From the NCBI GenBank assembly GCA_000004985.1, contig GG738876.1: a stretch of DNA of 64,000 nucleotides; one strand, given 5' to 3'. The position numbers and the translations under genes were made by a program. The stretch is from Naegleria gruberi. Lineage: Eukaryota. Under the pieces are notes generated by a model. That model was not told where the DNA came from. It saw only the letters and a list, made by a program, of their open reading frames with translations, and ran no database searches. Of the stretch, positions 1 to 60,044 are shown in pieces (positions within the stretch are counted from its first letter, which is position 1; every line of letters starts with the position of its first letter).

Positions 1-3000
1 TGATAATTCTCACAGAATCTTCCTTATCATAGGTAGTGACACAGAGTTTGAAATCTGGAAGAACTAGCTCTCTTTGAGAAGGTTGTGGTCTTTCCTTTTG
101 AAGATCCCATTTCTTTGGTGGTTCCTTCTTCTTTCTGTCCATTGTAGAGGAAGTACCATTGGCAGAGTTGACCTTCATGAAAGAGATGAGTTCATTTCTT
201 CCTTCTGAGATTACACATTCTGGGAATTGAGTTTGTGTATCATCAGTAAAGTAGATGAGACGAATTTGATTATCTTTGAATGGATAATTAATATCATCTT
301 CATCTTCATTATCCTTACTCTTGACACCATTTCTCATATTATTAATCTCATCTTCTAAAAGGGAAGAAAAGACATTCTGTTCGAAATTGCCAGTAGTTTG
401 GCAGAGAGATTCAAGATCAGAAACTTTCTTGAGTTGATTTTGAAGTACATTACGTTTCTCCTTAGTATGCCAATTGTGACAAAAGTGAATCTTGAGAACA
501 TTCTTCTCAGAATAACTATAGTCCACCAACATTCCAACGACATCACCTGAATAGTAACGTTGATTGTTAATTTCAAAACAGTGATGACAGCTGCCACTTG
601 GCCAAATGAAATTATCATAATGAGAAGGATTGAAATCTTTTGGTGCATCTGAATTATCAGATCCAGTAAAGTGAATATTTGGAACAATTCCAACACCAAG
701 ATTGATTCCTCCAATCTTTTCTACATAGAATTCAAAGTAGTATAAATTATTTGGAGTAAAGATTTGTTCACTTGTGGCATTTCTCCATCTGTAATCATTA
801 GGTGATTTCTTATTATCAGTTTCCATTAGTCTACTGATACAAGTATTATAAAGTACAGAATTCTTGGTAATGTCATTCTCTTTGGCAAGACCAGAAATAT
901 TTAACATGTTAGAGTCCTCACTGCAGGCATTCTTTGGACTGACTTGGAAAATTGGGAGTAAATAGTTAGGATTTAAATCAAATCTTGCAGGAATTGAATG
1001 CAAGTAGTGGTATGAATATTGCCACCACACTAATTCTTCCTGAACTGGAGGGTTGGAAATGAAAAAGTTTGCATTACTTCCAGAATTTTGTACAGCTCCA
1101 GTGGCTTGGAAGGATCCCATATTTTCATCGATTGCAAGATTGGAGAATTCAGAAGCATTTGAAATGTTGAGCATTCCTTGCAACCAATCACCAAGTTTGG
1201 CAATTTTAGAAGTTGGACAATCAGAACCACCATTCAATTGTTTAGAATAGATGGCATTCAGTAATTTCTTATCTACAGGTGGTTCAAGACAATCAGTTCT
1301 TGGAATATTGAAATAGGATTCACATATTAATTTCCAAAAATGAACATTCTTGAAATAGTTATGATACATGTAATTATTTACAAAACAAATTGAGAAAATT
1401 CCATATCTTGTCTGACTCATATATTGATATTCATCATCCATACTATCTTTGGAAGAAATGGAAATTCTGCTTGGATTAGGTTTAGAAGATTCCATCAAAT
1501 TCTTGACGAATCTCTTTTTCAAAAATTGATTATGTACAGATTGTTTAGCTTCGGTATGTAACTTTTTCAAATACTTTTCTCTAATATTCCAATAGGTATT
1601 ATATTCATGACACAACTCATCTTGATGAGGAATGAAAGTAATGATATGAAGAATCATTTCAAAAGGCAAGTCAATCAGTGATGGTTCATCATTATTAGCA
1701 GTAGAAGTAGTAGAATAACCAACAAATTGTTTGACGTCTCCATTAAACCTCGACAAGTGTGTCAGTGAAGAATGACTAGAACTATGAGTTAATGTCGTTG
1801 TCATATTTTTCTCGTCCAATACCATCATCTCTTTCATATTGATGGTTGGACTGTTGACCATCATTTGATGATCATAATTTACAGCATATTGGTGTTGATG
1901 GAAAGTTGATGATAACCTATTATTATTATTGGTATTTTGTTGTTGTTGCTTGTTCTGAGGAAGCATTTCAATGAATCCAAGAGGATGTACCTCATTGGGG
2001 AAGTAGTGATTAATAATTGTATTACCCATACTTGTTGTTGTTGTGTTTGTTTCAAAGATAGTACTATTGGTATCAGTTATTGTACAGGTTGTTAGTTGAG
2101 AATCAATGATTCTACTTGGATCCTCTTCCTGATGATTACTTTTAAAAGTGCAATAACTACTATTCTTGTAGGCAAAATTGGCAGGAGCAATAGAATCTTC
2201 TCCCAAAGAAGCACTAGGAGTTAAAGTTGAATCTTCTTTGACAGCAATAGCGAAGGAGGAATGGTCTTGTTTTTTCTTATTGATGTTAATATTAATAACA
2301 TCAGCACCACAACAGTCAAACCTCTTATCAGGATTCTCTTGTTGTTGTTCGTCGTTTAGATTTTGATCAGGTAGTGAAAATTGGTGTTTTTGGAAAGGTT
2401 GATACGATAATGGTTCCTCGCTGTTTGGAGATGATAATGTCTCTTCAGAATAATTGATCTTGTTACCTTGTTGATCATAAAGAACTGTTGTAGTGGCTGA
2501 ATAAAAACCATGATGGTGGTTAGTTTTTGACAGAGTATTAATTTGGTTGGATTTCTCGATTTTAGTAGAGACACTTGTCAAATCACTTAGAATACAAAGC
2601 TTGTTAAAGGACTCGGTATGTTCTTTGACTTGTTGTTGAGAACTGGCAGTAGTAGAATCATCATTGTAAACAGGAGTGCAGCACAAAAATTGATTAAGGG
2701 ATTTTAAGTGCGATTTACAGTGTTTTTCCTCCTCAATCAAATTTGTGGCGCCATTTTGCATGTTAACGGAAGATTGCTTTGAGGATTTGAATGATGAGCA
2801 AATTGCAGCAATATCTTTGGTGGAGAAGGTTTGTTGTCTGTGATGATAATCATTATTATTATTCGGATGTTGTGTGTATTCATCTGGGTATTCATCTAAT
2901 TGCATTGAATCTTCCTTATGATTATTATTATGGAGTGTTTGAGCTGAAATATTTGAACCTTCATCGAGTGCTATCATATTATCTTCATAATTTTGTGGTT

Positions 3001-3214
3001 CGACCAGAACTGTTGAATGATGGCTAGTAGTGGCTGCAGTCAGCCGAGGGGAATAATACAATGCAGCTTGTTCAATCTGTATGGATGATGCTAATGGTGT
3101 CGGTGAGGCAACCATCATTAGAGTTGTAGATGATTCAGTAGTACTACTTCTGCTAAATTCACCACACAGAGGTGATGTGTACGATGCTGTATTGTTATCA
3201 GAGAAGATGGTCAT
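1..3214 (-). CDS. F-box/SPRY-domain protein, N/Q-rich, 3-prime-truncated by the window edge (more than 1070 codons; ATG at 3214, upstream in-frame TAG at 3269-3271)
   Basis: I reverse-complemented and translated 3214 to 1 by hand and found one open frame. It starts MTIFSDNNTAS. It contains an F-box-like motif (LPFEMILHIITFIPHQDEL). Near the C-terminal part there is a SPRY/B30.2-like block (YYFEFYVEKIGGINLGVGIVPNIHFTG...YYSGDVVGMLVDYSYSEKNVLKIHFCHNWH). The ORF track omits it because it runs off the window. The track ORFs 355..714, 1030..1233, 1053..1250, 2178..2366, 2356..2574 and 2791..3027 are wrong-frame or antisense overlaps of it. Confidence 0.55.
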   Translation of the reverse strand, partial: MTIFSDNNTASYTSPLCGEFSRSSTTESSTTLMMVASPTPLASSIQIEQAALYYSPRLTAATTSHHSTVLVEPQNYEDNMIALDEGSNISAQTLHNNNHKEDSMQLDEYPDEYTQHPNNNNDYHHRQQTFSTKDIAAICSSFKSSKQSSVNMQNGATNLIEEEKHCKSHLKSLNQFLCCTPVYNDDSTTASSQQQVKEHTESFNKLCILSDLTSVSTKIEKSNQINTLSKTNHHHGFYSATTTVLYDQQGNKINYSEETLSSPNSEEPLSYQPFQKHQFSLPDQNLNDEQQQENPDKRFDCCGADVINININKKKQDHSSFAIAVKEDSTLTPSASLGEDSIAPANFAYKNSSYCTFKSNHQEEDPSRIIDSQLTTCTITDTNSTIFETNTTTTSMGNTIINHYFPNEVHPLGFIEMLPQNKQQQQNTNNNNRLSSTFHQHQYAVNYDHQMMVNSPTINMKEMMVLDEKNMTTTLTHSSSHSSLTHLSRFNGDVKQFVGYSTTSTANNDEPSLIDLPFEMILHIITFIPHQDELCHEYNTYWNIREKYLKKLHTEAKQSVHNQFLKKRFVKNLMESSKPNPSRISISSKDSMDDEYQYMSQTRYGIFSICFVNNYMYHNYFKNVHFWKLICESYFNIPRTDCLEPPVDKKLLNAIYSKQLNGGSDCPTSKIAKLGDWLQGMLNISNASEFSNLAIDENMGSFQATGAVQNSGSNANFFISNPPVQEELVWWQYSYHYLHSIPARFDLNPNYLLPIFQVSPKNACSEDSNMLNISGLAKENDITKNSVLYNTCISRLMETDNKKSPNDYRWRNATSEQIFTPNNLYYFEFYVEKIGGINLGVGIVPNIHFTGSDNSDAPKDFNPSHYDNFIWPSGSCHHCFEINNQRYYSGDVVGMLVDYSYSEKNVLKIHFCHNWHTKEKRNVLQNQLKKVSDLESLCQTTGNFEQNVFSSLLEDEINNMRNGVKSKDNEDEDDINYPFKDNQIRLIYFTDDTQTQFPECVISEGRNELISFMKVNSANGTSSTMDRKKKEPPKKWDLQKERPQPSQRELVLPDFKLCVTTYDKEDSVRII

Positions 3215-3324
3215 TTGGTTTTTTCTAAATGAATGTTGTGCTGGTGTGGTGTGAGTGTGAATGCACTTCTAGGAGAATTGGAGAGGATTTGGATTTACAG
3301 TAAAATGCACAAAATTCTAATGGA

Positions 3325-3345
3325 CAGATTTGGTTTCGAAATCTG
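3325..3345. other. Perfect 7-bp hairpin CAGATTT-ggtttcg-AAATCTG in the intergenic region 3-prime of the tubulin gene and 5-prime of the F-box gene
   Basis: Inverted repeat read directly from the sequence. It superficially resembles a tRNA T-arm (GGTTTCGAA), but no cloverleaf can be built around it. Confidence 0.4.
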
Positions 3346-3714
3346 TGTTATTGTTGGAGTGAGTGTTAGTGATGATACAAAGATCAGTCAGTTGATATTC
3401 TTTTGATATTCTTTTTTACTTGGAGAAAGAAGAATGGGATTCGAATGCATCTTTTTGAACAACGGTGAGCAGTTGTTGTCATCTGTTTTCGTGTGACAGT
3501 TATTAATAATCCAATTGCCAAATGAGATTTATTTCATTACCTGTAACTGAATGAAATGAGTAATGATATAAAGGATGATAATCATTGATAAAAAGGGTAA
3601 ATTCATTCTAAATCATATCAGGGCGATAGCTAGTCCATTTCAGGATTAATACCATATCAATAGAATGGCTAGCTATCTCTTTGTTCCAACTTTCTAAAAT
3701 ATCCGCAATTAATA

Positions 3715-5106
3715 TTACATATGTTGATAATCGTACAATATTTGCTCTGTTCTCATAAACATCTCTTCCATTTCTACCTTTCCAACATGGTGTTTCTCGT
3801 AGTGGTGAGTGTACGCCTTTGCATTAAACATTTGGAATGCTTTGGAAATTACCTTATCTAATTGAGGCACAATTGACTGACAATTACTCATTAAGAATGC
3901 AGTTTTCTCAAATCCATTAAATCCTGCTGGATTCTCATTAATATTAATTTTCATAGCTTCCCTTGGATTGATGTAGGATGAGTAAATTTTACTGTTGAAA
4001 AATGGATTGACAAGTTCTGCTTGGATTCCTCCAACTTCTTTTCCTCTCAAAATCATTAAATTGGTTATTGATTTGTTGATCATTGAGTCCCATCTTCTAT
4101 CAGATAAATTCACTTTCCAATTAATACATTCCTCAATAGGAGCATCCGCAATAAGCATTTGATGTAAATGCTTCATTAATCCTTCCCATCTAAAAACACT
4201 ATAATCTTTGCTTTTTGCTGACATGTGTGGTATTATTCTCGAATTTATAATCTTGTAAGCTGGATGCGAGCAAAGGTGTTGGATTGGATCATACAATAGT
4301 TGGCATGCATTATCAGCACAAGTAATTGGAGAGCTAGGTAAAGCTAAGCAACTCATATGGTCAGCAATGACAGTATTCATGTCATTGAATGAAGGACTTT
4401 CTATTCCCATCAATCTTTTACAAGTTAAAAACAATTGGTCATTTTTGAAACAGTAAATACTATCAGAAATTTCATATAATTTCTGTAGTGTGAGCAGAGT
4501 ATTATAATTCTGTACAATGACTTCTCCTGCCTCGTGAGGCCAAACAACTTGGTTCATGAGTAATGAATGAGGAAATTCATCTCTCAAAGTTTGAGAAATA
4601 TGACAACCCATTCCAGAACCAGTTCCACCAGCCATACTTTGCAGAAGAACAAATCCTGATAAACAATCACACAACTCTGCTTCCTTTCTCACTTTTTCCA
4701 AAATTGAATCTCCACAATTAGGTCCATGTACATTAAATCCATATGCCCAATTATTAGCACTTCCTGATTGTTGATGATAAACATTATTTGTATCATATTC
4801 AAATAATTGATTTTCATGCTTCCGATTTGCTGTATTCAATGTATTGTGTATTACTTTCGGTTCCATATCAATCAATAAGGCTCTTGCAATCATTGGATCG
4901 GAAGGATTTTTTGTATTGGGTCTAAAGAAACAATCCATAGCAGAGTCTCCGAAAGGTAAATAACGTTCCTCATTCACTACAAACTTGTCCCCAGCAACAA
5001 CTCTATTCAATCTATTTTGTATGAGTTGGGATGATAAATTCTGAAAAAACGAAAGCCCAACTTGATTACCACATTGGCCAATTTGGAGTGTTATCACATT
5101 GCTCAT
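3715..5106 (-). CDS. delta-tubulin (tubulin superfamily, TUBD1-like), single exon, 463 aa
   Basis: Tubulin GTP-binding loops GQCGNQVG and GGTGSGMG are present. Segments align closely with human delta-tubulin rather than alpha, beta or gamma. Matching segments: MSNVITLQIGQCGNQ; ARALLIDMEPKVIHNTLN; NNWAYGFNVHGP; FVLLQSMAGGTGSGMG; MNQVVWPHEAGEVIVQNYNTLLTL. ATG at 5106, TAA at 3715-3717. Confidence 0.75.
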   Translation of the reverse strand: MSNVITLQIGQCGNQVGLSFFQNLSSQLIQNRLNRVVAGDKFVVNEERYLPFGDSAMDCFFRPNTKNPSDPMIARALLIDMEPKVIHNTLNTANRKHENQLFEYDTNNVYHQQSGSANNWAYGFNVHGPNCGDSILEKVRKEAELCDCLSGFVLLQSMAGGTGSGMGCHISQTLRDEFPHSLLMNQVVWPHEAGEVIVQNYNTLLTLQKLYEISDSIYCFKNDQLFLTCKRLMGIESPSFNDMNTVIADHMSCLALPSSPITCADNACQLLYDPIQHLCSHPAYKIINSRIIPHMSAKSKDYSVFRWEGLMKHLHQMLIADAPIEECINWKVNLSDRRWDSMINKSITNLMILRGKEVGGIQAELVNPFFNSKIYSSYINPREAMKININENPAGFNGFEKTAFLMSNCQSIVPQLDKVISKAFQMFNAKAYTHHYEKHHVGKVEMEEMFMRTEQILYDYQHM

Positions 5107-25898: not shown

Positions 25899-28276
25899 TC
25901 ATTTACTCATATCAATGGAAATATCATCAGTGAGGGTTTGGGTGCTGTGTGTAGAGATAGATGAAATACTCTCTCTTATCTTTTTGATAGCAAAGTCTAG
26001 TAAACCAACGATTGGAAAATCAAGCCATATTTTCTCATCATTATTCATTTCGTTTGTCCATAGAATCAATCTTTGAAGGAGGAATGATTTTTCTTCACTA
26101 GAAATTTGGGATGGATTAGTAAGGCATTTGGAGAGCTCTTGCCTTAGTTCTATCCTCTCTTTATCACATGGTTCAATATAGATTGGTAAAGTGAGCATTG
26201 AGACAGACTCTCTAAATTGGTTTCCTAATTCAAAGTGTTGGACATAGTACCTTCTTGGTGAGTTAGAATCAATGGCCCAGTAAAGGGTATGCGTTCCCTC
26301 TAAGCCTTTGAGCTCAAAATTACCCATATTATCAAAGTGAATCTGTCCATCTTGGACTAGTTCTTTAAATTGCTCTAGTTCGTCTTTGAAAGTCGTAATA
26401 AAAGGAGTATCTTTAGGCAGACTATTGGTAGATGAAAGAGCTGTGGCGCGGTGCTTAATAAAACTTTGGACATCTGAACTGACATATACTCTACCACCAT
26501 GTGATTTGCTTTCAGTTCTTGCAGCTTGGTTGACTGCAGTGCCAAAGTAATCATATCTCTTGGTGGTTGGGTCAAATTGGGATTCAATTTCTTTTCCAAA
26601 GTGAACGCCCATTTTAACTCTTGGTCCTTTGTAAATAATTTCATTATTCCACTTGACTTCTTTCATGTCTGGAAATTCCAACATTTCAGGTGTCCAATGT
26701 CCTTTCAATAAGCCGTTTTGAATAGCAAAACAGCAACCTAGTGCTTCTATTGGATCATTGAATGCGATCATAAAACTGTCTGATTGGGTTTTCACTTCAT
26801 ATCCTTTAAACTTTCGAATATTTTCTCGCACTATTCTATGGTGAATGGCCAATACTTTCTTCATCAAATCTGAATCTAAAGTCCACATTAAGGATGAATT
26901 TTGTATGTGAGTGAAAACAATGCAAATAGGAGCTACTTTTGGAGCTAGACGATTTTCTCTCTTTCTAATCGAATTCTTTCTAACAACCCATCCAATCAAG
27001 AACACAAAAATTCCAACCAATAATATTGCAATAGTAAAACTGACAACACTGATGGAAATAATGAATTCGTTTCTCTTCTCAATTGGTAATACAGGCTCAG
27101 CAGTCCAAGCTTTCCACTTGGCTGTATTGTTTGGGTTTGATAACCACTTACAAGCAGCATCTTCTAAAGTCATTGAATTGTAAGCAACATATCCCATCAT
27201 GGTTACTTGATCTCTACCTCTATAATTCAAATTTTTAAGAAAGTTTTGAACACTTGAAGAGAGAGAAGAGACAGCACTCGTTTGGAGCTTACTATATGTT
27301 GACAAAGGGTAATCACAATCAACCAATCCATTGGCAATATTGTGAGCTGTATGACAGCTATCAGTAAATTGAGGAAGATAGATTCTAGATGGTGGATTAG
27401 GTCTACTGAATAATTGATGTGGAAACCAAAAATATGAAACCATCTCTTTTCGTTGTTGTTGAGCGTTTTGTAAATTTTCAATGAGATAGGTTTCAGTATC
27501 ATTATCAGGTGCATATTCCAACTGCAAATTCAACTTTAAATTCTTGATAATCTGATCATCATAATTCACCCAAGTTTTAGAGCCACTGACCATTCTTGTC
27601 ATGTTTGAAAGTCTAAAGTATCTGTAGTTATTTTGAACTGCATCCTTCATGAAATTTGGAATGAAAAACCCAATTTGGCCACTCGGACCCAAATCGCCAA
27701 TGTCTGTAATATGTTTACCATTAACCACATATTTTCTAAGATGAAAAGATTACTTGTTAGAAAGATCAGCGCATGCACTTACTTGTAATTTTCAAAGTTA
27801 GATAATTTCCAGTATTCTAACAACGCAATTGGACGTGTGGCTCCTTCCTTTTCCATAAGTTCCAAAGAATCCACAATATTTAGTTTTAAAATATCAACGC
27901 AAACTCCTAATTTTTCCTCGAGTATTATTGTTGCAAGAGCATTATTCATCGAGCTCGCCAGCCAATTATTTTCAATAAGAGTTATTCTTGGTGAAAAAGA
28001 GGAACAGTGGCTTGAAGATGCATCTTCAGGTAGACAACTGGCAACTGTTTTTCTAGTCGACGAAATATGTTGATACTGATGGGTTTGCATGTTTTCCAAT
28101 GGCGATCCACTCACAAAATAATAAGTTTCGTAATCGTGATTGTCAAGCTTATCAGCACCAATAAACATGCTAATAACAAATACAAAAAGTATTAATTTTG
28201 TGATAATGGATAATCTGGACCGTTTCCAATAATGTAATCCAACAAAACTACTACTACTAATATTCCTCGTAATCAT
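25899..28276 (-). CDS. receptor-type class III adenylyl cyclase, paralog 1: signal peptide, about 390-aa extracellular domain, 1 TM, catalytic domain; 2 exons 28276(or 28516)..27783 and 27735..25899
   Basis: The catalytic domain shows the adenine-specifying Lys in KGYEVKTQSDSFM and Asp in KRYDYFGTAVNQAARTES, which suggests ATP rather than GTP specificity. TM helix is FTIAILLVGIFVFLIGWVV. Exon 1 carries a hydrophobic signal-like segment (LSIITKLILFVFVISMFIGA). Intron 27782..27736 is 47 nt, GTAAGT...CTTAG, phase 2, with a CTAAC branch. The junction reads ...LEYWKLSNFENY-K-KYVVNGKHITDIGDLGP. The start codon is ambiguous: in-frame ATGs lie at 28516, 28276 and others. Confidence 0.7.
26590..26990. 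repeat. about 400-bp segment nearly identical at nucleotide level to 31160..31560 in the paralogous cyclase gene
   Basis: One run is 100% identical: ctcttggtcctttgtaaataatttcattattccacttgacttctttcatgtctggaaattccaacatttcaggtgtccaat, at 26616..26698 versus 31187..31269. The flanks are about 90% identical. The rest of the two genes is much more diverged. This fits gene conversion between tandem paralogs. Confidence 0.6.
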
Positions 28277-28835
28277 AATATTCAATATAAAATAGCAAAT
28301 CCACCACATAATTCTCGAATCAAACATGATAAAATCACAATATGAAATTTCATCCATTTGTATTTCAAACTTTCTTTGATTAATCGTGTATTCATCATCT
28401 CCTACTTCTTGTTCATTCCGTCTTCCCTCCAGAAGCAGCATTAATACGTTGTTGTTGCCAGCACAAGTTGTATCGGAAAGAACATGTTTGCCCATTTTTT
28501 TTCGTTCTCTCGTCATGTAAGATCGTGATGCCTAGCCTTATCTTCTTTTTTATACCAAATCCAGCTTGCGCGCCAAAGATTCTCTCATTACAGCGAATTT
28601 AGAGAGTTTCATTAAGGAAATGATGCAATAGAATATTGTGTTATTTATTTGTAATGGATTATATTCTATCATCTCCCAGTGCAGTTCTTCGACATTTCGT
28701 TTATATTGAATTGAAAGAAGTATTTATGCTTGAAGTATAGATAACTTACAATTTTGTAACTTTTAAATTCTGAATGAGTTGAGTAATGTTGTGATCGAAA
28801 ATGAACTTTTTTTCTAAAAATAAAAATATAAAAAA

Positions 28836-30368
28836 ATGGCATCAAAATCATCAAAAGAAACAAGAGGTTCCCATGTTGATGCAATCAGAGAAGAATTAGA
28901 ACAAGGCAAGGGACGTGATAATTTGATCGGTAAAGAATTTATTAAAAATAATAACAGAAATTATTTGGAATCTGGGTTAAAAACAAATATTAGACCCTTG
29001 ACAGAAAGTGATGATTATGAAATTTATTTTAGCGGCAAATCAACGAATGGCGCATTATTGACAGGATCAACGGAACCAAAGCAATTGGATGGGTTTGAAA
29101 AGTTTACAAAATATGATAGTGATAATGCAAAGAAATTATCAATCCCGAAAGATCAAGCTTTGAAATTTATTGATATTGGACTACAATTTACAGTGATAAT
29201 GACAACTAGGAATGAAGCTTTTTTATATGGAGACTTTGTATATGGATCAAGTTCGGCTTCTATTAATCCTCTTGGAAGGCAATTATCAATTCTAATGACG
29301 CTCACACCAGAAGTTAAACTTAATTATTTCCCTGATGAACCTGTTGCCATGTTGTGTGGAGAACAATTTGTTGCAGTATTGGATAGCTGTAATAGATTGT
29401 GGTATTGTGGTATTGAAAAGTTTGGAACTGCTAATAGTAGTTGTACTTATGATTTTGTGGAAATTGGATTGAAAAAATATTTGGAGACTGAATTTGTTGA
29501 TGAACCTACACATATCACTCACTTTAGAGTTGGAGGAAGACACTTGTGTTTTTGTATTAATAATAGGACTATTATTTCAACAGGTAAGTGACAATTCTTT
29601 CCATTTCATTCGAATACTCATATTATTCAAAGGTGCAAACTATTATGGACAGGTAGGTCATTAGCTTTAAATTAAATACTCAATCCAAAAGTTGGGAATT
29701 ATAAACACACCAGATTTGACACCACCAGTTCCCCCAAGTACTGTACTGACTGTTGCTAGTACACTTTCTCGCTATACATTCGTTAAAACTTGGAATGCAG
29801 ATGGAAAGTATAGAGTAAGAGACGTTGCTTGTTCTGGAAATATGACAGCTATTCTAACAGGTAAGCTCTAATCATAACACCCAAATTTTAACATTAATTA
29901 TTAGAATGTGGAAAATTATTTAAAACCTCTAATGCAGCTATTGCATCTGAGTCAATTGAATCAGTTGTTCTGGATGGATTTTCACTTACTACCATCTCTG
30001 GTAATTGGACTCATATTCTGGCACATACAAGCAAAAACCAAATGATGGGCGTTACGGATAATCATGTTACTGAATTCTTTAGCGAATCTCCTCTAAAGAA
30101 TTGTGATAATTTACACATCTCAACAGGAACCAATTCTAACAATACCTATTTTATTTACTCAAATAATGAATTATATGAACCACATAATCCAAAGGCAGTT
30201 CTCAAATCTTCCCTACCAATAGTTGTTTGTAAATTGACCTCTGAAGCAACTATGGTTTTATGTATGAATTTTAAGAGCAACAAGTCAATTCTTGCAATGA
30301 AACGAAACCTTCTCCAATGTACAGTATCACAAGGGCTATCAGATGTTCTAATCAATGCCCAACAATAA
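28836..30368 (+). CDS. RCC1-repeat-like protein, 4 exons: 28836..29583, 29633..29652 (20-nt micro-exon), 29692..29860, 29905..30368
   Basis: Splicing produces an RCC1 signature: ...NNRTIISTG|ANYYGQ|LGIINTPDL.... Introns are 49, 39 and 44 nt (donors GTAAGT, GTAGGT, GTAAGC). An alternative in-frame acceptor at 29937 would give a 77-nt last intron. The gene lies between the two tandem cyclase paralogs on the opposite strand. Confidence 0.5.
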
Positions 30369-30370
30369 AT

Positions 30371-32832
30371 TTATGCTCCAGATTGAATCAATTCTTCAGG
30401 GCATGACATTACTGCGATAGAACTAGAAGAAGAAAGCGACTCTTTTCTACAGGGTTGAGCGACACTATTTCGTCTTTTCCTGTTATCTGGACGGATAATT
30501 GTATCTTCATATGCATATTCTTTGTTATCTGAAACAATGTTATCCATTTCAGCAGGAAGATAATGAGAGATGACAATTGGTATGAGATGCTTCAATTCCA
30601 ATTCAGTCCATGCATCCTTTTCTTCTTCGGTATCATTATTCCACAATACAAGCCTATGCAGAAGTTTACTCTTCTCATTTTCATTCCATTTCGATGGATC
30701 ACTTATACATGATGCACACGATTGTTTCAATTCCATTCGTTCCTTATCAATTTTCTCTCTCAACAATGGAACTGATAATCCAGAGTCAATTCTAACATGA
30801 GGCAACAATTCGAATTGTTGAATGTAGGAAGTTCGAGGGGAAGTTGTATCCATAATCCAAAACAAAGTGTGATTACCTTCCAATCCTTTCAAAATAAAGT
30901 TTCCCATATTTTCGAATTGGATTTTTCCAGAGTAAAGCAATTGTTTGAATTGAAAGATTGGATCCTTATGAATGGGAAACCCCTTATCCATGCAAATATT
31001 GCAACGAGAAGCTCCTCCCATTTGATGCTTTAGGTGGTCGTGAATATTTGAGCAAATGTAAATTCTTCCTCCTTGAGCTTGATTTTCAGTTCTAGATGCT
31101 TGGTTGACCGTCGTGCCAAAGTAATCATATCTCTTGGTGGTTGGATCAAAATGAGCTTCCACTTCACTGCCATAATGAAGGCCCATTCTAACTCTTGGTC
31201 CTTTGTAAATAATTTCATTATTCCACTTGACTTCTTTCATGTCTGGAAATTCCAACATTTCAGGTGTCCAATTTCCTTTCAACAAATCATTCTGAATAGC
31301 AAAACAACAACCAATTGCTTCTATTGGGTCACTGAAGGCAATCATAAAGCTGTCTGATTGAGTTTTCACTTCATATCCTTTAAACTTTCGAATATTGTCT
31401 CGAACAATTTTGTGATGAATGGTAACAACTTTCTTCATCAAATCTGAATCCAAAGTCCACAACAGTGAAGCATTCTGAATATGAGTGAAAACAATGCAAA
31501 TAGGTGGTGCTTTTGGGGCCAATCTATTTTCTCTCTTTCTAATCGAATTCTTTCGAATGCAAAATCCACAGCAAAAAACACAAAAACCAATTAGTATAAT
31601 AGCAAGTGTAAACCCCACAACAGTCATTGAAATAATAAAGGCATTACTCTTCTCCGGTTGAAAAGGTGGCTCTGAAATCCAACTCTTCCATCTCTCTGTA
31701 TTATTGCCTTTCAAAATCCAAGTACAGGCAGCATCCTCTTTCGACATTTTATCATACGAAACTAAGCCTAACAGTTCAATCTGGTCAGCATTCGTCAGTT
31801 TCATCCTTTCCAAAAAGTTTTGCACTTTTTCAGGAAAACTCAACACTGCCCTAGTTTGCAGTTTACTGTAAGTAGTCATGGCAAAATCACAATCCACCAA
31901 ATTATTCTCCACATTGTGAGGTGATACACATTCTGCAGTAAATGGTGGAAGTGTCACACGTTGTGGAGCATTAGGTCTACTGAATAATTGATGAGGTGTG
32001 AAAAAGTAGGAAACCAGCTGCTTTCTCTCCCGTTCTGCATTTCTCAACTCTTGAATCAGAAACTTCTCAGTGTAATTCTGAGGAGGATATTCCAAAACGA
32101 GATTCAATTTCAGATTTTTAATAACCTGCTCATCAAAGTTGACCCAAGTTTTTGCTCCACTAATGTAACGTGTAGCATTCACTGTACGATAGTATCGATA
32201 ATTCAAGCTCAGTGGATTATCTATAGCCATCCAATTAGGAATATACCATCCAACTTGTCCTAATGGACCTAAATCTCCAATATCCATTACATTTCGTCCA
32301 TTTAACACATACTTTCTAAAACATTTCAATAAGAAACATTCAATTATTATTCCACCATTCCAGAAAACAATCCAAAAATCAATCACAGTTTAATTATTTA
32401 TCAAGTAAAAATTGAGATTTCTTACCTGTAAACATCCAAATGATTTAACTTCCAAAATTCTAACAAGACGTAGGGAACCTCATCTCCTCTACTCTCCATC
32501 ACTCTAAGAGATTCATCCACGCCATATTCCTCAACATCGACACATACTCCAAGTACTTCCTCGAGGAAAACTTTTGCTATTTGAATGTTCATCGTTGTTG
32601 CTAACCAATTATATTGGATTAGTTTAATTCTGGGCGAAAGTGGTGTGCATGCAGTTCCTGAGGCGGTATGAAGTGAAGGAAGGCATGATGATGATGTTGA
32701 ATATGATGTTGGTGAAACATGTTGTTGGTTTGATGGTTTAGAATGTGCAAACAAGATGACTAAACACAAGACTAAACTCAATCGAAAGAAGTAACGAAAT
32801 AGAAGGGAATAATTGCGTCGCCGTTTCTTCAT
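30371..32832 (-). CDS. receptor-type class III adenylyl cyclase, paralog 2; 2 exons 32832..32426 and 32315..30371
   Basis: Signal peptide MKKRRRNYSLLFRYFFRLSLVLCLVILFAHS. The probable start at 32832 is internal to track ORF 32422..33132. Same architecture and same intron position and phase as paralog 1. Intron 32425..32316 is 110 nt, GTAAGA...TTTTAG. The junction reads ...LEFWKLNHLDVY-R-KYVLNGRNVMDIGDLGP. Catalytic motifs: KGYEVKTQSDSFMIAF and RYDYFGTTVNQASRTE. Confidence 0.7.
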
Positions 32833-56287: not shown

Positions 56288-57916
56288 ATGAAAAGAGGTG
56301 CAGCCCCAGTTTCCGAAAGATTATTGAAAAAGGTCAAACAAGGTAGTGGTAAGACTGCTACAAGTGGTGAAGAGAAGAAGAAGGCATCATCTTCATCAAG
56401 TGCTGAAAAAAAAGTTGAAATACAATATTGTAATGTACCATTGATGATTGAACCAGAATCGGAGGAAGAAGAACCAATTCTTCAACCAGCTGAAATTAAA
56501 AAGGAACAACTTGTGATGAAGCATACACCAAAGGATGGTATTGAATTGATGAAAAATCCAAAATCTAATGATTCCAGAGCTCAAGGAAAGTCAGTATTAG
56601 ACTGGGTTTATGCACCAATAGATATGGATAAATTATATCAAGAATTCGTAGAGAAGAGAGTTTTGGTAATCAGAAGAAATGAAGTATATCCAGATTACTA
56701 CAAGGGATTATACAGTTTGGATGAAATTAAGAAAACTCTTGTGGATCATGAACTTAGATATTCTTACGATTTGGATTTGGCTCTCTATAGAAATGGACGT
56801 CGTTTCACATTGAATCCTAATAAGGATGATGTTGCTGATCCAACATTAGTATGGGATTTATATGAAAATGAAAAGTGTTCCATTAGAATGTTGAGACCAC
56901 AAGAACACTCTGATGTCTTGTTGTCTTTATTGTGTCATTTTGAAGAATATTTCGGTCAAGGAGCTGGTTTGAATGCTTATTTAACACCTGCTGGTTCTCA
57001 AGGATTTGCTCCTCATTACGATGATATTGAAGCTTTCCTCATTCAATTGGAAGGTGAAAAGCATTGGAAGATTTACAGACCTCTTGAAAATCAACAATAT
57101 TTGGATAGATTCAGTTCCAAGAATTTCACTCAAGAAGAAGTTGCAGGATTTGAATGCTTTGAAATCTTGTTAAAACCTGGTGATATGTTATATGTTCCAA
57201 AGGGTGTTATTCACCAAGCTGTCACATCACAAGATCAGCACTCCCTCCACATTACTGTTTCCACTTCACATTTGATGAGTTGGACTGATTACTTGGAAAA
57301 GGCCCTTCCTTTGGCTCTCCAAATGGCTACAGAAAATCATGTTGACTTGAGAACAGCTCTACCAAAAGACTTTAAAGAATACATGGGAACTAATATTGCT
57401 GAATGTGAGGATCCAAGAAGAGAGGAATTCATTTTAAAGTGTTCTGAAATGGTTGGTCTTGTTATGAACTCAATTCCTATGGATCAAGCTGCAGATGAAA
57501 TGGTCAAGAAATTCATGCATGATAGACATGTGTCGAGTGGTCTTTCAATTTTGAGAGAAAAATCAAATAAGGATCAACAAATTAGTGAGGCAACTGTTTC
57601 AAAGTTGAAGGTCAGACTTGCCACTGCTAACACTGCTCACATTGTTATTGATAATTTATCGGAGGAGAAATCTGAAAACCAAGAAGAGGAAGAAGAAGTC
57701 TTTTCAATTATTTATTCATCTCAAAATACCAGAGTTTACCATGAAGTTGAACTCCAACATTTGGACTTGGACGGAATCTTCTTGGAAGCTGTTCAAACCA
57801 TTTTTACTGCCTATCCAAAGAGTGTCAAGGTTGCTGATCTTCCAAACCTTTCAGATGAAGAAAAGGTCATGTTGATCGAACAATTAGTGGGAGAAAAAAT
57901 TGTTGAACTTGCTTAA
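56288..57916 (+). CDS. JmjC/cupin ribosomal oxygenase of the NO66/MINA53 (RIOX) type
   Basis: The Fe(II)-binding HxD...H facial triad is present (HYD and a distal His). Close match to human NO66 core: YLTPAGSQGFAPHYDDIEAFLIQLEGEKHWKIYRP ... DMLYVPKGVIHQAVTSQDQHSLHITVS. 542 aa, single exon, basic N-terminal tail. Confidence 0.8.
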   Translation: MKRGAAPVSERLLKKVKQGSGKTATSGEEKKKASSSSSAEKKVEIQYCNVPLMIEPESEEEEPILQPAEIKKEQLVMKHTPKDGIELMKNPKSNDSRAQGKSVLDWVYAPIDMDKLYQEFVEKRVLVIRRNEVYPDYYKGLYSLDEIKKTLVDHELRYSYDLDLALYRNGRRFTLNPNKDDVADPTLVWDLYENEKCSIRMLRPQEHSDVLLSLLCHFEEYFGQGAGLNAYLTPAGSQGFAPHYDDIEAFLIQLEGEKHWKIYRPLENQQYLDRFSSKNFTQEEVAGFECFEILLKPGDMLYVPKGVIHQAVTSQDQHSLHITVSTSHLMSWTDYLEKALPLALQMATENHVDLRTALPKDFKEYMGTNIAECEDPRREEFILKCSEMVGLVMNSIPMDQAADEMVKKFMHDRHVSSGLSILREKSNKDQQISEATVSKLKVRLATANTAHIVIDNLSEEKSENQEEEEEVFSIIYSSQNTRVYHEVELQHLDLDGIFLEAVQTIFTAYPKSVKVADLPNLSDEEKVMLIEQLVGEKIVELA

Positions 57917-57929
57917 TTAAATAATTTAT

Positions 57930-58815
57930 TTACCACTTTAGTTCAACACCGTCATATTGTAAGAATTTACCATTCTGAGTTTCGGGTTTGAACTCATCAA
58001 TTAGACTTTTAATTGATGGACCTACATCGTCAACAGATAATGGAGCTCTTTCTCCACCTAAAATAATAAAATTAAATACTATTCGAATAATTACTAACCT
58101 GTGTCCGTTTTAACCCAACCTTAAATAATTAAGAATTAAATAAAATTAAAATAACTGAATAATACCAACCAGGATGAATGCAAAAACAGTAAACTCCTTC
58201 CAACTCTATACTAATCATTTTTGTTAACATATTCAATGCTGCCTTTGATGTACAATAGCTCACTCTCTTTCTTGGCCTATTTGTCCTATTAATACTGGCC
58301 ATACCACTCGAAATATTGGCAATAATTGCATCATTTTCAAAACATTGATTATTATACAAATGTTGCATCATTAGCATTGGTCCAATACAGTTAGTTTCAT
58401 ATACAGACAGCATCCCTTCTTTGGTAGCATTTTGGAGATTTTCAAATCGATCCAAGGAATAAGTTCCTGCATTATTTATCAGTACTTTGAATTTAACAGA
58501 ATCCCTTCTTTTTTCAACATAATTCTTAATAGTCTCCTCCTTTGAAACATCAATCATATCAATATCCAAACGACTCGGATACTTTTCCAATAATTCATTC
58601 AATTTCGTAGCATTTTCTGGATTTCTACAAGTGGCAAATACTTTTTTAGTTTCATCCTTCAAAAATAATTCCACCAATTTTAATCCACTAAATATTCGTA
58701 TGAACATGTCATTAACATTCCACACACTCACACTGATTACCTACATTCCTTTCGAACATCCAGTAATCAGAATATTTTCCAAAGCCCGTGATGAGTGACT
58801 TAGTAGTTGACTCAT
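57930..58815 (-). CDS. short-chain dehydrogenase/reductase (C-factor-like SDR), 4 exons: 58815..58745, 58687..58170, 58119..58099 (21-nt micro-exon), 58057..57930
   Basis: Splicing restores the canonical motifs. These are TGCSKG|IGLKLVELFL (Rossmann TGxxxGIG across intron 1, 57 nt, GTAGGT), NNAG and YCTSKAALN. The C-terminus reads IHPG|GWVKTDT|GGERAPLSVDDVGPSIKSLI...GKFLQYDGVELKW. Track ORF 58129..58731 reads through intron 2 into a false stop. The true stop at 57930 is only 13 nt from the stop of the convergent NO66-like gene. Confidence 0.7.
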
Positions 58816-59159
58816 TTTTTTCTCAAACTCTTCCGATTGGTTCTTTTGTCGTGTTTGATAACGAAGACTCTAGTTTACAACGTGAATAACATCAAGCCTC
58901 ATCAATAGAAACATTTCATTTTGATGGGTGTATTCGTTCCTTATTGTTTTCCATAAACATCAAGTTTGTTATCCACTTTCTGATGTTGTACAATAAATTC
59001 TCTTTGCATTTCGATCATAACTAGAATGCTATTTTTATATTAAAAAAATCAAAAAACAAATAACACGTTTCAAGTCCACTCAGACTTGAAAAAGAGTTTC
59101 ATTTGGTTCAAACCGATAATAACAATATTTCAGCCCCACAGGGTTTTGTATTATATAAT

Positions 59160-60044
59160 ATGTTCGCAGGATTTAATATCAAGGAGGATTATTTGAGTGA
59201 TGAGGAATCAAGTATGCATGTAAATAATAATCAGCAGACTACTACATCATCATCAATTGAAAGTCTTGTTGCCGATGATGAATTATTGTCATCAGAAGGC
59301 TCTAGAAACGTTGTGGTGATAAATAATAATATTAGTACACAAGAAGATGAAGATTCGTTCATTCTCATTACAAATTATAATACATCAAATCAAGAAGAAA
59401 ATCAAAATGCTAGTACTATGGCAACTAGTAGCATGACCGAATTGCCAACAACACAAGAAATTACCGAGTCGTATCATAACAAAGTTAGTACAGGATTCAT
59501 TGCCGAATCAGTTACTGCACATGAGGAAATTGTCGAGTTTCATGCAACCATGGATCAATCATATCAAAATGAACAGCCGTTTGAGAATATGACACAATCT
59601 TTCATGGCACATGAAACTTCAGTAACATCACAAACTCGTGAGCCTTTGAGTATTTTAGCAAGTGAAGAAATTGATACAGATGATTCATCAGCATCAAGTT
59701 CTCCAGTACTTTTAATCGAGGAAGGAGATCAAGTAATTGAATCTCAACAAGATGTTGTCGAAACTGTTGAGGAAACCAGACAGGTATTCGATGAAACTCT
59801 ATCCAATTCAAATGAAGAAACTATTCTAGGAACTGTTCTCTCTCAAGAAACATCTAATGATTCTGTTGTCCAATCAGAAGACAACAATAACACCACTTGT
59901 ACTACCATTAATGAGGTTGGAATTGCCAATTTTTTAGCCCAAATCAGCCCAGGAAACCCAAGATTTAATTTCTTGGTGCAAGCAGGAGTGATCGCCTGTC
60001 TTTCCGTATTTGTTTTCAGTTTATTCGAGATTGTTTGTAATTAA
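59160..60044 (+). CDS. acidic Ser/Thr/Glu-rich protein with a single C-terminal transmembrane segment (tail-anchored topology)
   Basis: The track start 59103 is TTG; the first ATG is 59160. The C-terminal hydrophobic segment is FLVQAGVIACLSVFVFSLFEIV, followed by CN and the stop. No recognisable domain. Confidence 0.45.
   Translation: MFAGFNIKEDYLSDEESSMHVNNNQQTTTSSSIESLVADDELLSSEGSRNVVVINNNISTQEDEDSFILITNYNTSNQEENQNASTMATSSMTELPTTQEITESYHNKVSTGFIAESVTAHEEIVEFHATMDQSYQNEQPFENMTQSFMAHETSVTSQTREPLSILASEEIDTDDSSASSSPVLLIEEGDQVIESQQDVVETVEETRQVFDETLSNSNEETILGTVLSQETSNDSVVQSEDNNNTTCTTINEVGIANFLAQISPGNPRFNFLVQAGVIACLSVFVFSLFEIVCN

What the first reader, a model, noticed from the sequence alone, without database searches (positions are those of the whole stretch)
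57930..58815. Micro-exons of 21 and 20 nt and 39-57-nt introns: the SDR and RCC1-like genes are mis-represented by simple ORF calling
The SDR gene only makes sense after removing three tiny introns (57, 50, 41 nt). Splicing regenerates the Rossmann motif TGCSKG|IGLKLV and the C-factor-type C-terminus HPG|GWVKTDT|GGERAPL…YDGVELKW. The middle exon is 21 nt (58119..58099). The ORF track instead shows a 200-aa ORF that lacks the N-terminal glycine motif and ends in a false stop inside intron 2. The RCC1-like gene likewise has a 20-nt exon (29633..29652) whose inclusion creates the RCC1 signature G-ANYYGQ-LG. The SDR intron 2 is flanked by the direct repeat GGTTGG at both splice sites, so its exact boundaries are ambiguous. 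Gene finders trained on larger exons would miss these genes.
Basis: partly seen in the sequence, partly recalled or inferred. Interest (0 to 1): 0.5.

Follow-up and report, generated by a model that had tools for sequence, protein, structure and literature searches.

The report
Truncated Naegleria reductase gene, 21-nt exon

Summary
The window is Naegleria gruberi DNA. On the minus strand, exons 58815-58745, 58687-58170, 58119-58099 (21 nt) and 58057-57930 are separated by GT..AG introns of 57, 50 and 41 nt. They splice to a 245-aa sniffer/C-factor-type SDR.

- Of 178,340 possible GT-AG models, this one scores best against a profile of 116 distant homologues (250.5 bits; next best 237.4).
- It aligns without gaps across all three junctions to Drosophila sniffer (1SNY, E 1e-29).
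- The micro-exon encodes the family's invariant W198 and T201.
- The reference protein EFC43034.1 (192 aa) is a single ORF that starts in intron 1 and stops in intron 2.

The RCC1-like 20-nt exon (29633-29652) is also real. The reference model already contains it, but misses the next intron, of 44 nt. Introns of 39-57 nt are normal in this window.

One mildly unusual point concerns intron positions within the 21 nt encoding GWVKTDTG:

| Species | Intron position(s) |
|---|---|
| N. gruberi | 0 and +21 |
| N. lovaniensis, N. fowleri | +6 |
| Willaertia magna | +17 |

No transcript data could be reached.

The parts
58745..58815 (-). SDR exon 1 (71 nt). Runs from ATG 58815 to ...ITGCSKG plus 2 nt of Ile24.
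   Evidence: First in-frame ATG after an upstream stop. T18, G19 and G23 are invariant in 30 homologues.
58688..58744 (-). SDR intron 1 (57 nt, GTAGGT..TTTAG, phase 2).
   Evidence: Position and phase are conserved in N. lovaniensis, N. fowleri and Willaertia magna. It holds an in-frame TAG. All top-scoring models use it.
58170..58687 (-). SDR exon 2 (518 nt). The core of the Rossmann fold, ending ...CIHP plus 1 nt of Gly197.
   Evidence: Pfam adh_short match. NNAG at residue 95 and YCTSK at residue 168.
58120..58169 (-). SDR intron 2 (50 nt, GTTGGT..TTAAG, phase 1). Weak donor with T at +3. Specific to N. gruberi at this exact position.
58099..58119 (-). SDR micro-exon (21 nt). Encodes 2 nt of G197, W198-V-K-T-D-T203, and 1 nt of G204.
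   Evidence: G197, W198, T201 and G204 are invariant in 30 homologues. Versus N. lovaniensis there are 3-4 synonymous and 0 non-synonymous changes. Including it raises the Pfam score from 89.0 to 96.1 bits.
58058..58098 (-). SDR intron 3 (41 nt, GTTAGT..TTTAG, phase 1). Specific to N. gruberi.
   Evidence: Absent in N. lovaniensis and N. fowleri, where this stretch is continuous coding sequence.
57930..58057 (-). SDR exon 4 (128 nt including the TAA stop). Encodes GERAPL...YDGVELKW.
   Evidence: The C-terminal Trp245 is invariant. The alignment to 1SNY runs to its last residue.
58165..58170 (-). Direct repeat GGTTGG, copy 1 (last base of exon 2 plus the first 5 bases of intron 2).
   Evidence: It is the longest boundary repeat among 20 introns surveyed; the others are 0-4 nt.
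58115..58120 (-). Direct repeat GGTTGG, copy 2 (last base of intron 2 plus the first 5 bases of the micro-exon).
28836..29583 (+). RCC1-like gene exon 1 (748 nt).
   Evidence: Identical to the N-terminus of reference protein P0124.
29584..29632 (+). RCC1-like intron 1 (49 nt, GTAAGT..AAAG).
29633..29652 (+). RCC1-like micro-exon (20 nt), encoding (G)ANYYGQ.
   Evidence: Needed to keep the frame. GANYYGQL is continuous coding sequence in the N. lovaniensis orthologue. Present in reference models P0123 and P0124.
29653..29691 (+). RCC1-like intron 2 (39 nt, GTAGGT..AAAAG).
29692..29860 (+). RCC1-like exon 3 (169 nt).
29861..29904 (+). RCC1-like intron 3 (44 nt, GTAAGC..ATTAG). The reference model P0124 misses it and reads through to ...AILTGKL*.
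   Evidence: The junction AILT|ECGKLFKT aligns with CIVTTCGKIFKT of N. lovaniensis.
29905..30368 (+). RCC1-like exon 4 (464 nt including the stop). Completes a 466-aa protein.
   Evidence: 42% identity over residues 55-465 to N. lovaniensis P0125. 82% identity and 99% coverage to paralogue P0123.

Best explanation
The region is a four-exon nuclear gene of Naegleria gruberi on the minus strand. It encodes a 245-aa classical short-chain dehydrogenase/reductase of the sniffer / C-factor-like carbonyl-reductase group.

The pre-mRNA loses three short U2-type GT..AG introns (57, 50 and 41 nt). The 21-nt exon between introns 2 and 3 is included constitutively.

That exon supplies WVKTDT of the invariant block HPGWVKTD(T/M)GG. 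By established SDR knowledge, this is the 'PG...T' segment that packs against the nicotinamide of NAD(P)H.

In a genome where nearly all introns are 40-60 nt, splice sites are presumably paired across the intron (intron definition). A 21-nt exon would then be no obstacle. This step is inferred.

The public protein for the locus (NAEGRDRAFT_69028, 192 aa) is an unspliced-ORF artefact, truncated at both ends.

The RCC1-like gene at 28836-30368 is built the same way, with a 20-nt exon. Its reference model is truncated because a 44-nt intron was missed.
For: Shown:
- Organism: the neighbouring ORF is identical to N. gruberi EFC42938.1.
- The splice model gives an open 738-nt CDS, and any intron retention gives a premature stop.
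- Pfam adh_short scores 96.1 bits for the spliced model, 89.0 without the micro-exon, and 66.3 for the bare ORF.
- Ungapped alignment over all junctions to Drosophila sniffer 1SNY (E 1e-29, to the last residue) and to 3WXB.
- Best of 178,340 enumerated GT-AG models, 250.5 bits against 237.4 for the runner-up.
- T18, G19, G23, G25, N95, N123, S155, Y168, K172, P196, G197, W198, T201, G204 and W245 are invariant in 30 homologues, with no gaps at the junctions.
- Orthologues of 243-244 aa in N. lovaniensis, N. fowleri and Willaertia share intron 1 at the same position and phase.
- N. gruberi versus N. lovaniensis: pN 0.19 and pS 0.66 overall. In the micro-exon there are 0 non-synonymous and 3-4 synonymous changes.
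- The reference model is the 192-aa ORF MFIRIFSGLKLV...HPGWYYSVILILFNS.
- RCC1-like gene.
- Introns of 44-54 nt are typical of the window.

Inferred: constitutive inclusion, intron definition, and NADPH-dependent carbonyl reduction (by homology only).
Against: - No transcript evidence could be reached. The collections hold no protein that spans the junctions.
- Both introns flanking the micro-exon have unusual donors with T at +3 (GTTGGT, GTTAGT). The other 11 window introns have A at +3. Intron 2 also lacks the CAG exon context.
- Skipping the micro-exon keeps the frame, so a 238-aa isoform cannot be excluded.
- The orthologues do not share the two-intron arrangement, so conservation does not support the micro-exon structure itself. 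It supports only the coding content.
Confidence: 0.92

Rival explanations
1. The reference annotation is right. The locus makes an unspliced mRNA that encodes the 192-200-aa ORF (58129-58731).
For: This is the model deposited as EFC43034.1 / XP_002675778.1. The ORF is the only long one in the six-frame list.
Against: - That product lacks the TGxxxGxG dinucleotide-binding motif and everything after HPG. It ends in 11 residues (YYSVILILFNS) with no homology.
- It scores 66.3 bits against 96.1 for the spliced model.
- The sequences that complete the family's invariant motifs lie exactly at GT..AG distance on both sides.
- Orthologues are 243-244 aa.
Confidence: 0.02
2. The micro-exon is skipped in the main or a regulated product. 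Splicing from 58170 to 58057 gives an in-frame 238-aa protein that lacks WVKTDTG.
For: - The exon is 21 nt, a multiple of 3, so skipping keeps the frame.
- Both flanking donors are weak.
- Exons of 27 nt or less are known to challenge the splicing machinery (PMC8378409 abstract).
Against: - The deleted residues include W198 and T201, invariant in 30 homologues.
- There is purifying selection on exactly these codons.
- The profile score is lower (89.0 against 96.1; the one-intron skip model 58169-58058 is not among the top 25).
- A minor skipped isoform is not excluded.
Confidence: 0.04
3. The gene is spliced, but at other junctions than those proposed. Examples are the intron-3 acceptor at 58052 or 58046, or the donor at 58165 paired with other sites.
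For: Such models also give open frames and score 225-237 bits. The GGTTGG repeat allows seven equivalent placements of intron 2 in the mRNA alignment.
Against: - They score 13 or more bits lower, and they delete or alter conserved residues (GGERAPL).
- Only one placement of intron 2 has GT..AG ends.
Confidence: 0.02

Closest known systems
Drosophila melanogaster sniffer (CG10964; PDB 1SNY) and the C-factor/CsgA-like carbonyl-reductase group of classical SDRs
   Same: Full-length collinear alignment (E 1e-29, query 12-245 to chain 21-267). Shared motifs are ILITGCxxGxGL, TCRN, NNAG, YxxSK, HPGWVKTDMGG and a C-terminal Trp. Many homologues are named C-factor, C-signal-like or SDR family oxidoreductase.
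   Different: About 35-40% identity only. T203 stands where nearly all others have Met. The loop between beta-4 and the active-site helix is shorter. No enzymatic data exist.
Naegleria lovaniensis C9374_004898 (P0003, 244 aa), with the N. fowleri and Willaertia magna orthologues
   Same: 70-71% (N. lovaniensis) and 57-58% (Willaertia) identity. Same length. Intron 1 is at the same position and phase.
   Different: They have three exons, not four. There is one intron in the HPGWVKTD(T/M)G stretch, at +6 nt (N. lovaniensis, N. fowleri) or +17 nt (Willaertia). N. gruberi has two, at 0 and +21 nt. The introns of N. lovaniensis and N. fowleri are 131-167 nt, against 41-57 nt in N. gruberi.
Micro-exons (27 nt or less) of animals, plants and other eukaryotes
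   Same: Internal coding exons of 21 and 20 nt that ORF-based and some model-based gene calling miss. They encode a conserved structural motif.
   Different: Here there is no evidence of regulated inclusion. The flanking introns are tiny (39-50 nt) rather than long, so recognition is presumably across introns.
Near intron pairs / intron sliding (Lehmann et al. 2010, PMC2891723)
   Same: Orthologous genes carry introns at different positions less than 32 nt apart in an ungapped, conserved coding block.
   Different: [quoted passage not shown] In N. gruberi two of them do coexist, 21 nt apart. The mechanism (sliding, or loss plus gain) is not resolved here.

Membership tests
Classical short-chain dehydrogenase/reductase (Pfam PF00106 adh_short) | Profile match above the curated threshold | tested here: met
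   96.1 bits against a cut-off of 26.6, residues 14-206.
Classical short-chain dehydrogenase/reductase (Pfam PF00106 adh_short) | N-terminal TGxxxGxG cofactor-binding motif | tested here: met
   T18-G19-C-S-K-G23-I-G25. It is formed only after intron 1 is removed. T18, G19, G23 and G25 are invariant.
Classical short-chain dehydrogenase/reductase (Pfam PF00106 adh_short) | NNAG motif and the Asn-Ser-Tyr-Lys catalytic residues (YxxxK) | tested here: met
   NNAG at 95-98. N123, S155 and Y168-C-T-S-K172 are all invariant in alignment A1. Which Ser is catalytic was not resolved.
Classical short-chain dehydrogenase/reductase (Pfam PF00106 adh_short) | PG motif followed by the conserved Thr after beta-6 | tested here: met
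   P196-G197-W-V-K-T201. G197 is split across intron 2, and T201 is encoded by the micro-exon.
Sniffer / C-factor-like carbonyl reductases | End-to-end similarity to solved members, including the HPGWVKTDMGG block and the C-terminal Trp | tested here: met
   1SNY E 1e-29, 3WXB E 1.3e-28, 1YO6 E 1.1e-17. W245 is invariant.
Sniffer / C-factor-like carbonyl reductases | NADPH-dependent reduction of carbonyl substrates | not testable with these tools
   Only indirect: the conserved basic residue R45 in ATCRN.
U2-type spliceosomal introns | GT..AG termini; removal restores the frame and retention disrupts it | tested here: met
   All six introns of the two genes.
U2-type spliceosomal introns | Branch-site motif upstream of the 3' splice site | tested here: inconclusive
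   YTNAY motifs lie 9-26 nt upstream in all three SDR introns. In DNA that is 85% A+T this is weak evidence.
U2-type spliceosomal introns | Spliced transcripts observed | not testable with these tools
   No junction-spanning protein or transcript is in the searchable collections.
RCC1 / RCC1-like domain proteins | Profile match above the curated threshold | tested here: not met
   PF25390 scores 54.7 bits against a cut-off of 150; PF00415 scores 17.6 against 21.7; PF13540 scores 16.5 against 22. E is 1.4e-14 for PF25390, and the GxNxxGQLG signature is present. This is a divergent relative, not a certified member.
Near intron pair produced by intron sliding | Different intron positions less than 32 nt apart in orthologues, within an ungapped alignment | tested here: met
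   Positions 0 and +21 (N. gruberi), +6 (N. lovaniensis, N. fowleri) and +17 (Willaertia).
Near intron pair produced by intron sliding | The shifted introns are homologous (same intron moved), not a loss plus an independent gain | not testable with these tools
   Synonymous sites are saturated (pS 0.66). No closer relatives of N. gruberi were found.

The most novel reading that the evidence does not exclude
The 21-nt exon may be a snapshot of intron turnover.

- Within the 21 nt that encode (G)WVKTDT(G), four related amoebae carry introns at four different positions. N. gruberi holds two of them at once, a coexisting 'near intron pair'.
- Its intron 2 lies exactly 6 nt upstream of the N. lovaniensis / N. 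fowleri position.
- That intron is bracketed by a 6-nt direct repeat (GGTTGG) whose upstream copy is the old exon end.
- This would fit either a true 6-nt intron slide or an insertion with a target-site duplication.
- Both N. gruberi-specific introns have atypical GTT donors, as young introns often do.
Probability: 0.25. Interest if true: 0.45.

Novelty: new member of a known kind. Interest (0 to 1): 0.2.

Why it matters
**Practical value.** The deposited N. gruberi proteins for both loci are truncated. These are EFC43034.1 (192 aa instead of 245) and the 315-aa RCC1-like model (instead of 466). Proteome-based work on this model amoeba therefore sees an SDR without its cofactor-binding motif or its C-terminal third. 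This applies to orthology, domain counts and metabolic reconstruction.

Other groups have already had to correct N. gruberi gene models by hand with RNA-seq (bioRxiv 10.64898/2026.08.18.745565). This fits a known weakness of the 2010 annotation and does not reveal new biology.

**Evolutionary value.** The cluster of four intron positions within 21 nt is a tidy case for people who study intron sliding and gain. So is the coexistence of two of those introns in one species. It is one locus, and its mechanism is unresolved.

Tried and rejected
1. **Introns 2 and 3 as duplicates of each other.** They are the most similar pair among 13 window introns (score 31). An unrelated pair scores 29, and composition-preserving shuffles give p of about 0.03. 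This was not accepted.
2. **An 'introner'-like repeated intron family.** The shared 5' motif GTTRGTANTTATTC is not enriched in the window (5 matches, 5.1 expected).
3. **Origin of intron 2 by tandem duplication of a 50-nt coding unit.** By eye I saw no similarity between the intron and the flanking exons beyond the 6-nt repeat. This was not scored.
4. **Transcript or closer-relative evidence.**
   - Exact look-up of the spliced 245-aa and 238-aa proteins found nothing.
   - The JGI metagenome scan gave only a bacterial SDR at 25% identity.
   - The N. gruberi genome is not in the gene-position index.
   - A metagenome contig 99.5% identical to the window (L003) has all 8 differences upstream or in exon 1, so it says nothing about the introns.
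6. **A simple two-ORF joining heuristic**. It fails at both micro-exons, proposing a 109-nt intron 58187-58079 and a 130-nt intron 29584-29713. In the profile test, no model using 58187-58079 is among the 25 best.
7. **The Fritz-Laylin 2010 genome paper.** It is not held. Genome statistics were taken from PMC8296547, Table 2.

Full report
**What the window is.** The 542-aa ORF next to the finding (56288-57916, +) is identical to Naegleria gruberi EFC42938.1 / XP_002675682.1. The window has 28-38% G+C. Published figures for N. gruberi NEG-M are 33% G+C and 1.7 exons per gene (PMC8296547, Table 2). This is therefore nuclear DNA of a heterolobosean amoeba. Spliceosomal introns are expected, and a bacterial-style ORF list is the wrong tool.

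**Checking the observation.** Reading the minus strand gives the following structure.

| Feature | Coordinates | Length | Note |
|---|---|---|---|
| Exon 1 | 58815-58745 | 71 nt | |
| Intron 1 | 58744-58688 | 57 nt | GTAGGT...TTTAG |
| Exon 2 | 58687-58170 | 518 nt | |
| Intron 2 | 58169-58120 | 50 nt | GTTGGT...TTAAG |
| Micro-exon | 58119-58099 | 21 nt | |
| Intron 3 | 58098-58058 | 41 nt | GTTAGT...TTTAG |
| Exon 4 | 58057-57930 | 128 nt | includes TAA |

- The spliced CDS is 738 nt and gives 245 aa.
- ATG 58815 is the first in-frame ATG after a stop.
- Retaining any intron gives a stop at codon 24, 209 or 204.
- In the RCC1-like gene, 29633-29652 is a 20-nt exon between GT..AG introns of 49 and 39 nt. 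Without it the frame breaks.
The notation 'HPG|GWVKTDT|GG' counts the two split glycine codons twice; the protein reads HPGWVKTDTGG.

**Is the splice model more than a plausible story?** Four independent tests say yes.
1. *Profile scores.* Pfam adh_short scores 96.1 bits for the spliced protein, 89.0 if the micro-exon is skipped, and 66.3 for the bare ORF.
2. *Solved structures.* The protein aligns end to end with Drosophila sniffer (1SNY, E 1e-29) and with 3WXB (E 1.3e-28). There are no gaps at any junction: ILITGCSKGIGLKLV aligns with ILITGCNRGLGLGLV, and HPGWVKTDTGGERAPL with HPGWVKTDMGGSSAPL.
3. *Exhaustive enumeration.* I enumerated every model with up to three GT..AG introns of 25-250 nt starting from ATG 58815. 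That gave 178,340 models, of which 40,962 encode at least 150 aa. Each was scored against an HMM built from 116 homologues that exclude the heterolobosean sequences. The runner-up (237.4 bits) differs only in the acceptor of intron 3.
4. *Conservation.* In an alignment with 29 homologues, the invariant columns include T18, G19, G23 and G25 (across junction 1). They also include P196, G197, W198, T201 and G204, that is, the micro-exon and both of its split codons, and the terminal W245.

**Comparative evidence.** Orthologues exist in three relatives.

| Species | Protein | Identity to N. gruberi |
|---|---|---|
| N. lovaniensis | P0003, 244 aa | 70-71% |
| Willaertia magna | P0004, 243 aa | 57-58% |
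| N. fowleri (Logan contig L004) | rebuilt here | 73% over the part covered by P0005 |

- I identify L004 as N. fowleri because its neighbouring acetyltransferase is identical to KAF0974010.1.
- Exact back-mapping of these proteins to their DNA shows that intron 1 (KG|I, phase 2) is conserved in all four species.
- Between N. gruberi and N. lovaniensis the gene has pN 0.19 and pS 0.66.
- In the micro-exon there are 3-4 synonymous and no non-synonymous differences. These 21 nt are therefore translated in the proposed frame and are under selection.

**What the public annotation says.**
- *SDR locus.* The spliced 245-aa protein is not among about 15 billion public sequences. The N. gruberi protein for this locus is EFC43034.1 / XP_002675778.1 (NAEGRDRAFT_69028), 192 aa, MFIRIFSGLKLV...HPGWYYSVILILFNS.
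- *RCC1-like locus.* The result is different. The reference model P0124 (315 aa) already contains the 20-nt exon (...ISTGANYYGQLGII...) but runs into the next intron (...AILTGKL*). The paralogue P0123 (455 aa) is complete. My four-exon model (28836-29583, 29633-29652, 29692-29860, 29905-30368; 466 aa) aligns with N. lovaniensis P0125 through both corrected junctions.
- *Consequence.* 'Gene finders would miss micro-exons' is true for the SDR only.
- *Family membership.* The RCC1 family match is below Pfam's curated thresholds. 'RCC1-like' should be read as 'divergent relative'.

**Are the tiny introns unusual?** No. A simple ORF-joining survey of the window found nine further plausible introns. 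Seven are 44-54 nt and one is 103 nt, with donors GTAAGT, GTAGGT or GTATGT. The related Acrasis kona has introns of 9-95 bp (PMC11589745). The same survey fails at both micro-exons and proposes false 109-nt and 130-nt introns, which illustrates why they are missed. The 2010 N. gruberi models are already known to need manual correction with RNA-seq (bioRxiv 10.64898/2026.08.18.745565).

**How it most likely works.**
- *Shown.* The gene encodes a complete classical SDR with TGxxxGxG, NNAG, N123, S155, Y168-x3-K172 and PG...T201.
- *From established SDR knowledge.* The Gly-rich turn binds the cofactor. Tyr and Lys are catalytic. The Thr after the PG motif contacts the nicotinamide.
- *Consequence.* Both ends cut off by the reference model are essential, and skipping the micro-exon should inactivate the enzyme.
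- *Inferred.* The activity is NADPH-dependent carbonyl reduction, by homology to sniffer. Splicing is by intron definition, with constitutive inclusion of the 21-nt exon. YTNAY branch-like motifs lie 9-26 nt upstream of each acceptor, but this is weak evidence in such A+T-rich sequence.

**The one point that is not routine.** Take the N. gruberi intron-2 site as 0, within the ungapped HPGWVKTD(T/M)GG block. Intron positions are then as follows.

| Species | Position(s) | Phase |
|---|---|---|
| N. gruberi | 0 and +21 | both phase 1 |
| N. lovaniensis, N. fowleri | +6 | phase 1 |
| Willaertia magna | +17 | phase 0 |

- The micro-exon exists only in N. gruberi.
- The three introns of the RCC1-like gene are likewise absent from the N. 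lovaniensis orthologue, which has one intron elsewhere.
- Intron 2 is bracketed by the direct repeat GGTTGG. This is the longest boundary repeat among 20 introns examined; the others are 0-4 nt. Its upstream copy corresponds to the exon end of the other Naegleria species.
- Both N. gruberi-specific SDR introns have T at donor position +3, unlike the 11 other window introns.
- This pattern fits a 6-nt intron slide, or an insertion with a short duplication, plus a second gain. Lehmann et al. (PMC2891723) argue that introns less than 32 nt apart are very unlikely to coexist. Poverennaya et al. (PMC7730772) regard sliding as very rare. A verified case would therefore interest that field.
- I could not show homology of the introns.
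- My tests for duplication of intron 2 and intron 3, and for a repeated intron family, were negative or marginal. A by-eye look for tandem duplication of coding sequence found nothing.

**Limits.**
- No RNA evidence was reachable.
- A minor in-frame skipped isoform cannot be excluded.

**Verdict.** The observation and its interpretation are correct. The biology is ordinary: a known enzyme family, normal short introns, and micro-exons of a known kind. The concrete output is two corrected gene models, plus a small, unresolved curiosity about intron positions.

Noticed in passing
window 57914-57932: The SDR stop codon (57932-57930, minus strand) and the stop of the convergent JmjC / ribosomal-oxygenase-like gene (56288-57916, plus strand; Pfam JmjC_2 and RIOX1_C_WH) are only 13 nt apart. 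Their 3' UTRs must overlap.
   Followed up: partly
window 29861-29904: The reference N. gruberi RCC1-like protein (P0124, 315 aa) is truncated because this 44-nt intron was not removed. The corrected model is 466 aa, and paralogue P0123 on another scaffold is complete (455 aa).
   Followed up: yes
window 25899-28516 (-) and 30371-32386 (-): Two paralogous adenylate/guanylate cyclase genes (PF00211, E about 1e-20 each) flank the RCC1-like gene. The first probably continues upstream through a 47-nt intron (27736-27782) into the ORF 27779-28516.
   Followed up: partly
L004 2774-3800 (N. fowleri contig from Logan SRR29240419): The N. fowleri orthologue of the SDR has exons 2774-2829, 2997-3526 and 3658-3800, with introns of 167 and 131 nt. 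No NCBI protein for it appears among the search hits, only a prokaryote-style 178-aa ORF call. It may be unannotated there too.
   Followed up: partly
L003 (ENA metagenome assembly ERZ929261, 1745 nt) = window 57539-59283: An environmental contig is 99.5% identical to the N. gruberi reference. All 8 differences lie upstream of the ATG or in exon 1 (one synonymous, one Ala to Thr). The three introns are identical.
   Followed up: yes
window 58165-58169, 58094-58098: Both introns flanking the SDR micro-exon start GTT (GTTGGT, GTTAGT). The 11 other introns surveyed in the window have A at position +3.
   Followed up: partly
window 29580-29583, 29649-29652, 29857-29860, 58102-58099(-): Four of the five N. 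gruberi-specific introns in these two genes are preceded by the same exon tetramer, ACAG. The conserved SDR intron 1 is preceded by GAAT. This may be a proto-splice-site preference for newer introns.
   Followed up: no
L005 899-950 compared with window 28836-30368: N. gruberi and N. lovaniensis share no intron position in the RCC1-like gene (three introns against one, all at different sites). This suggests high intron turnover within the genus.
   Followed up: partly
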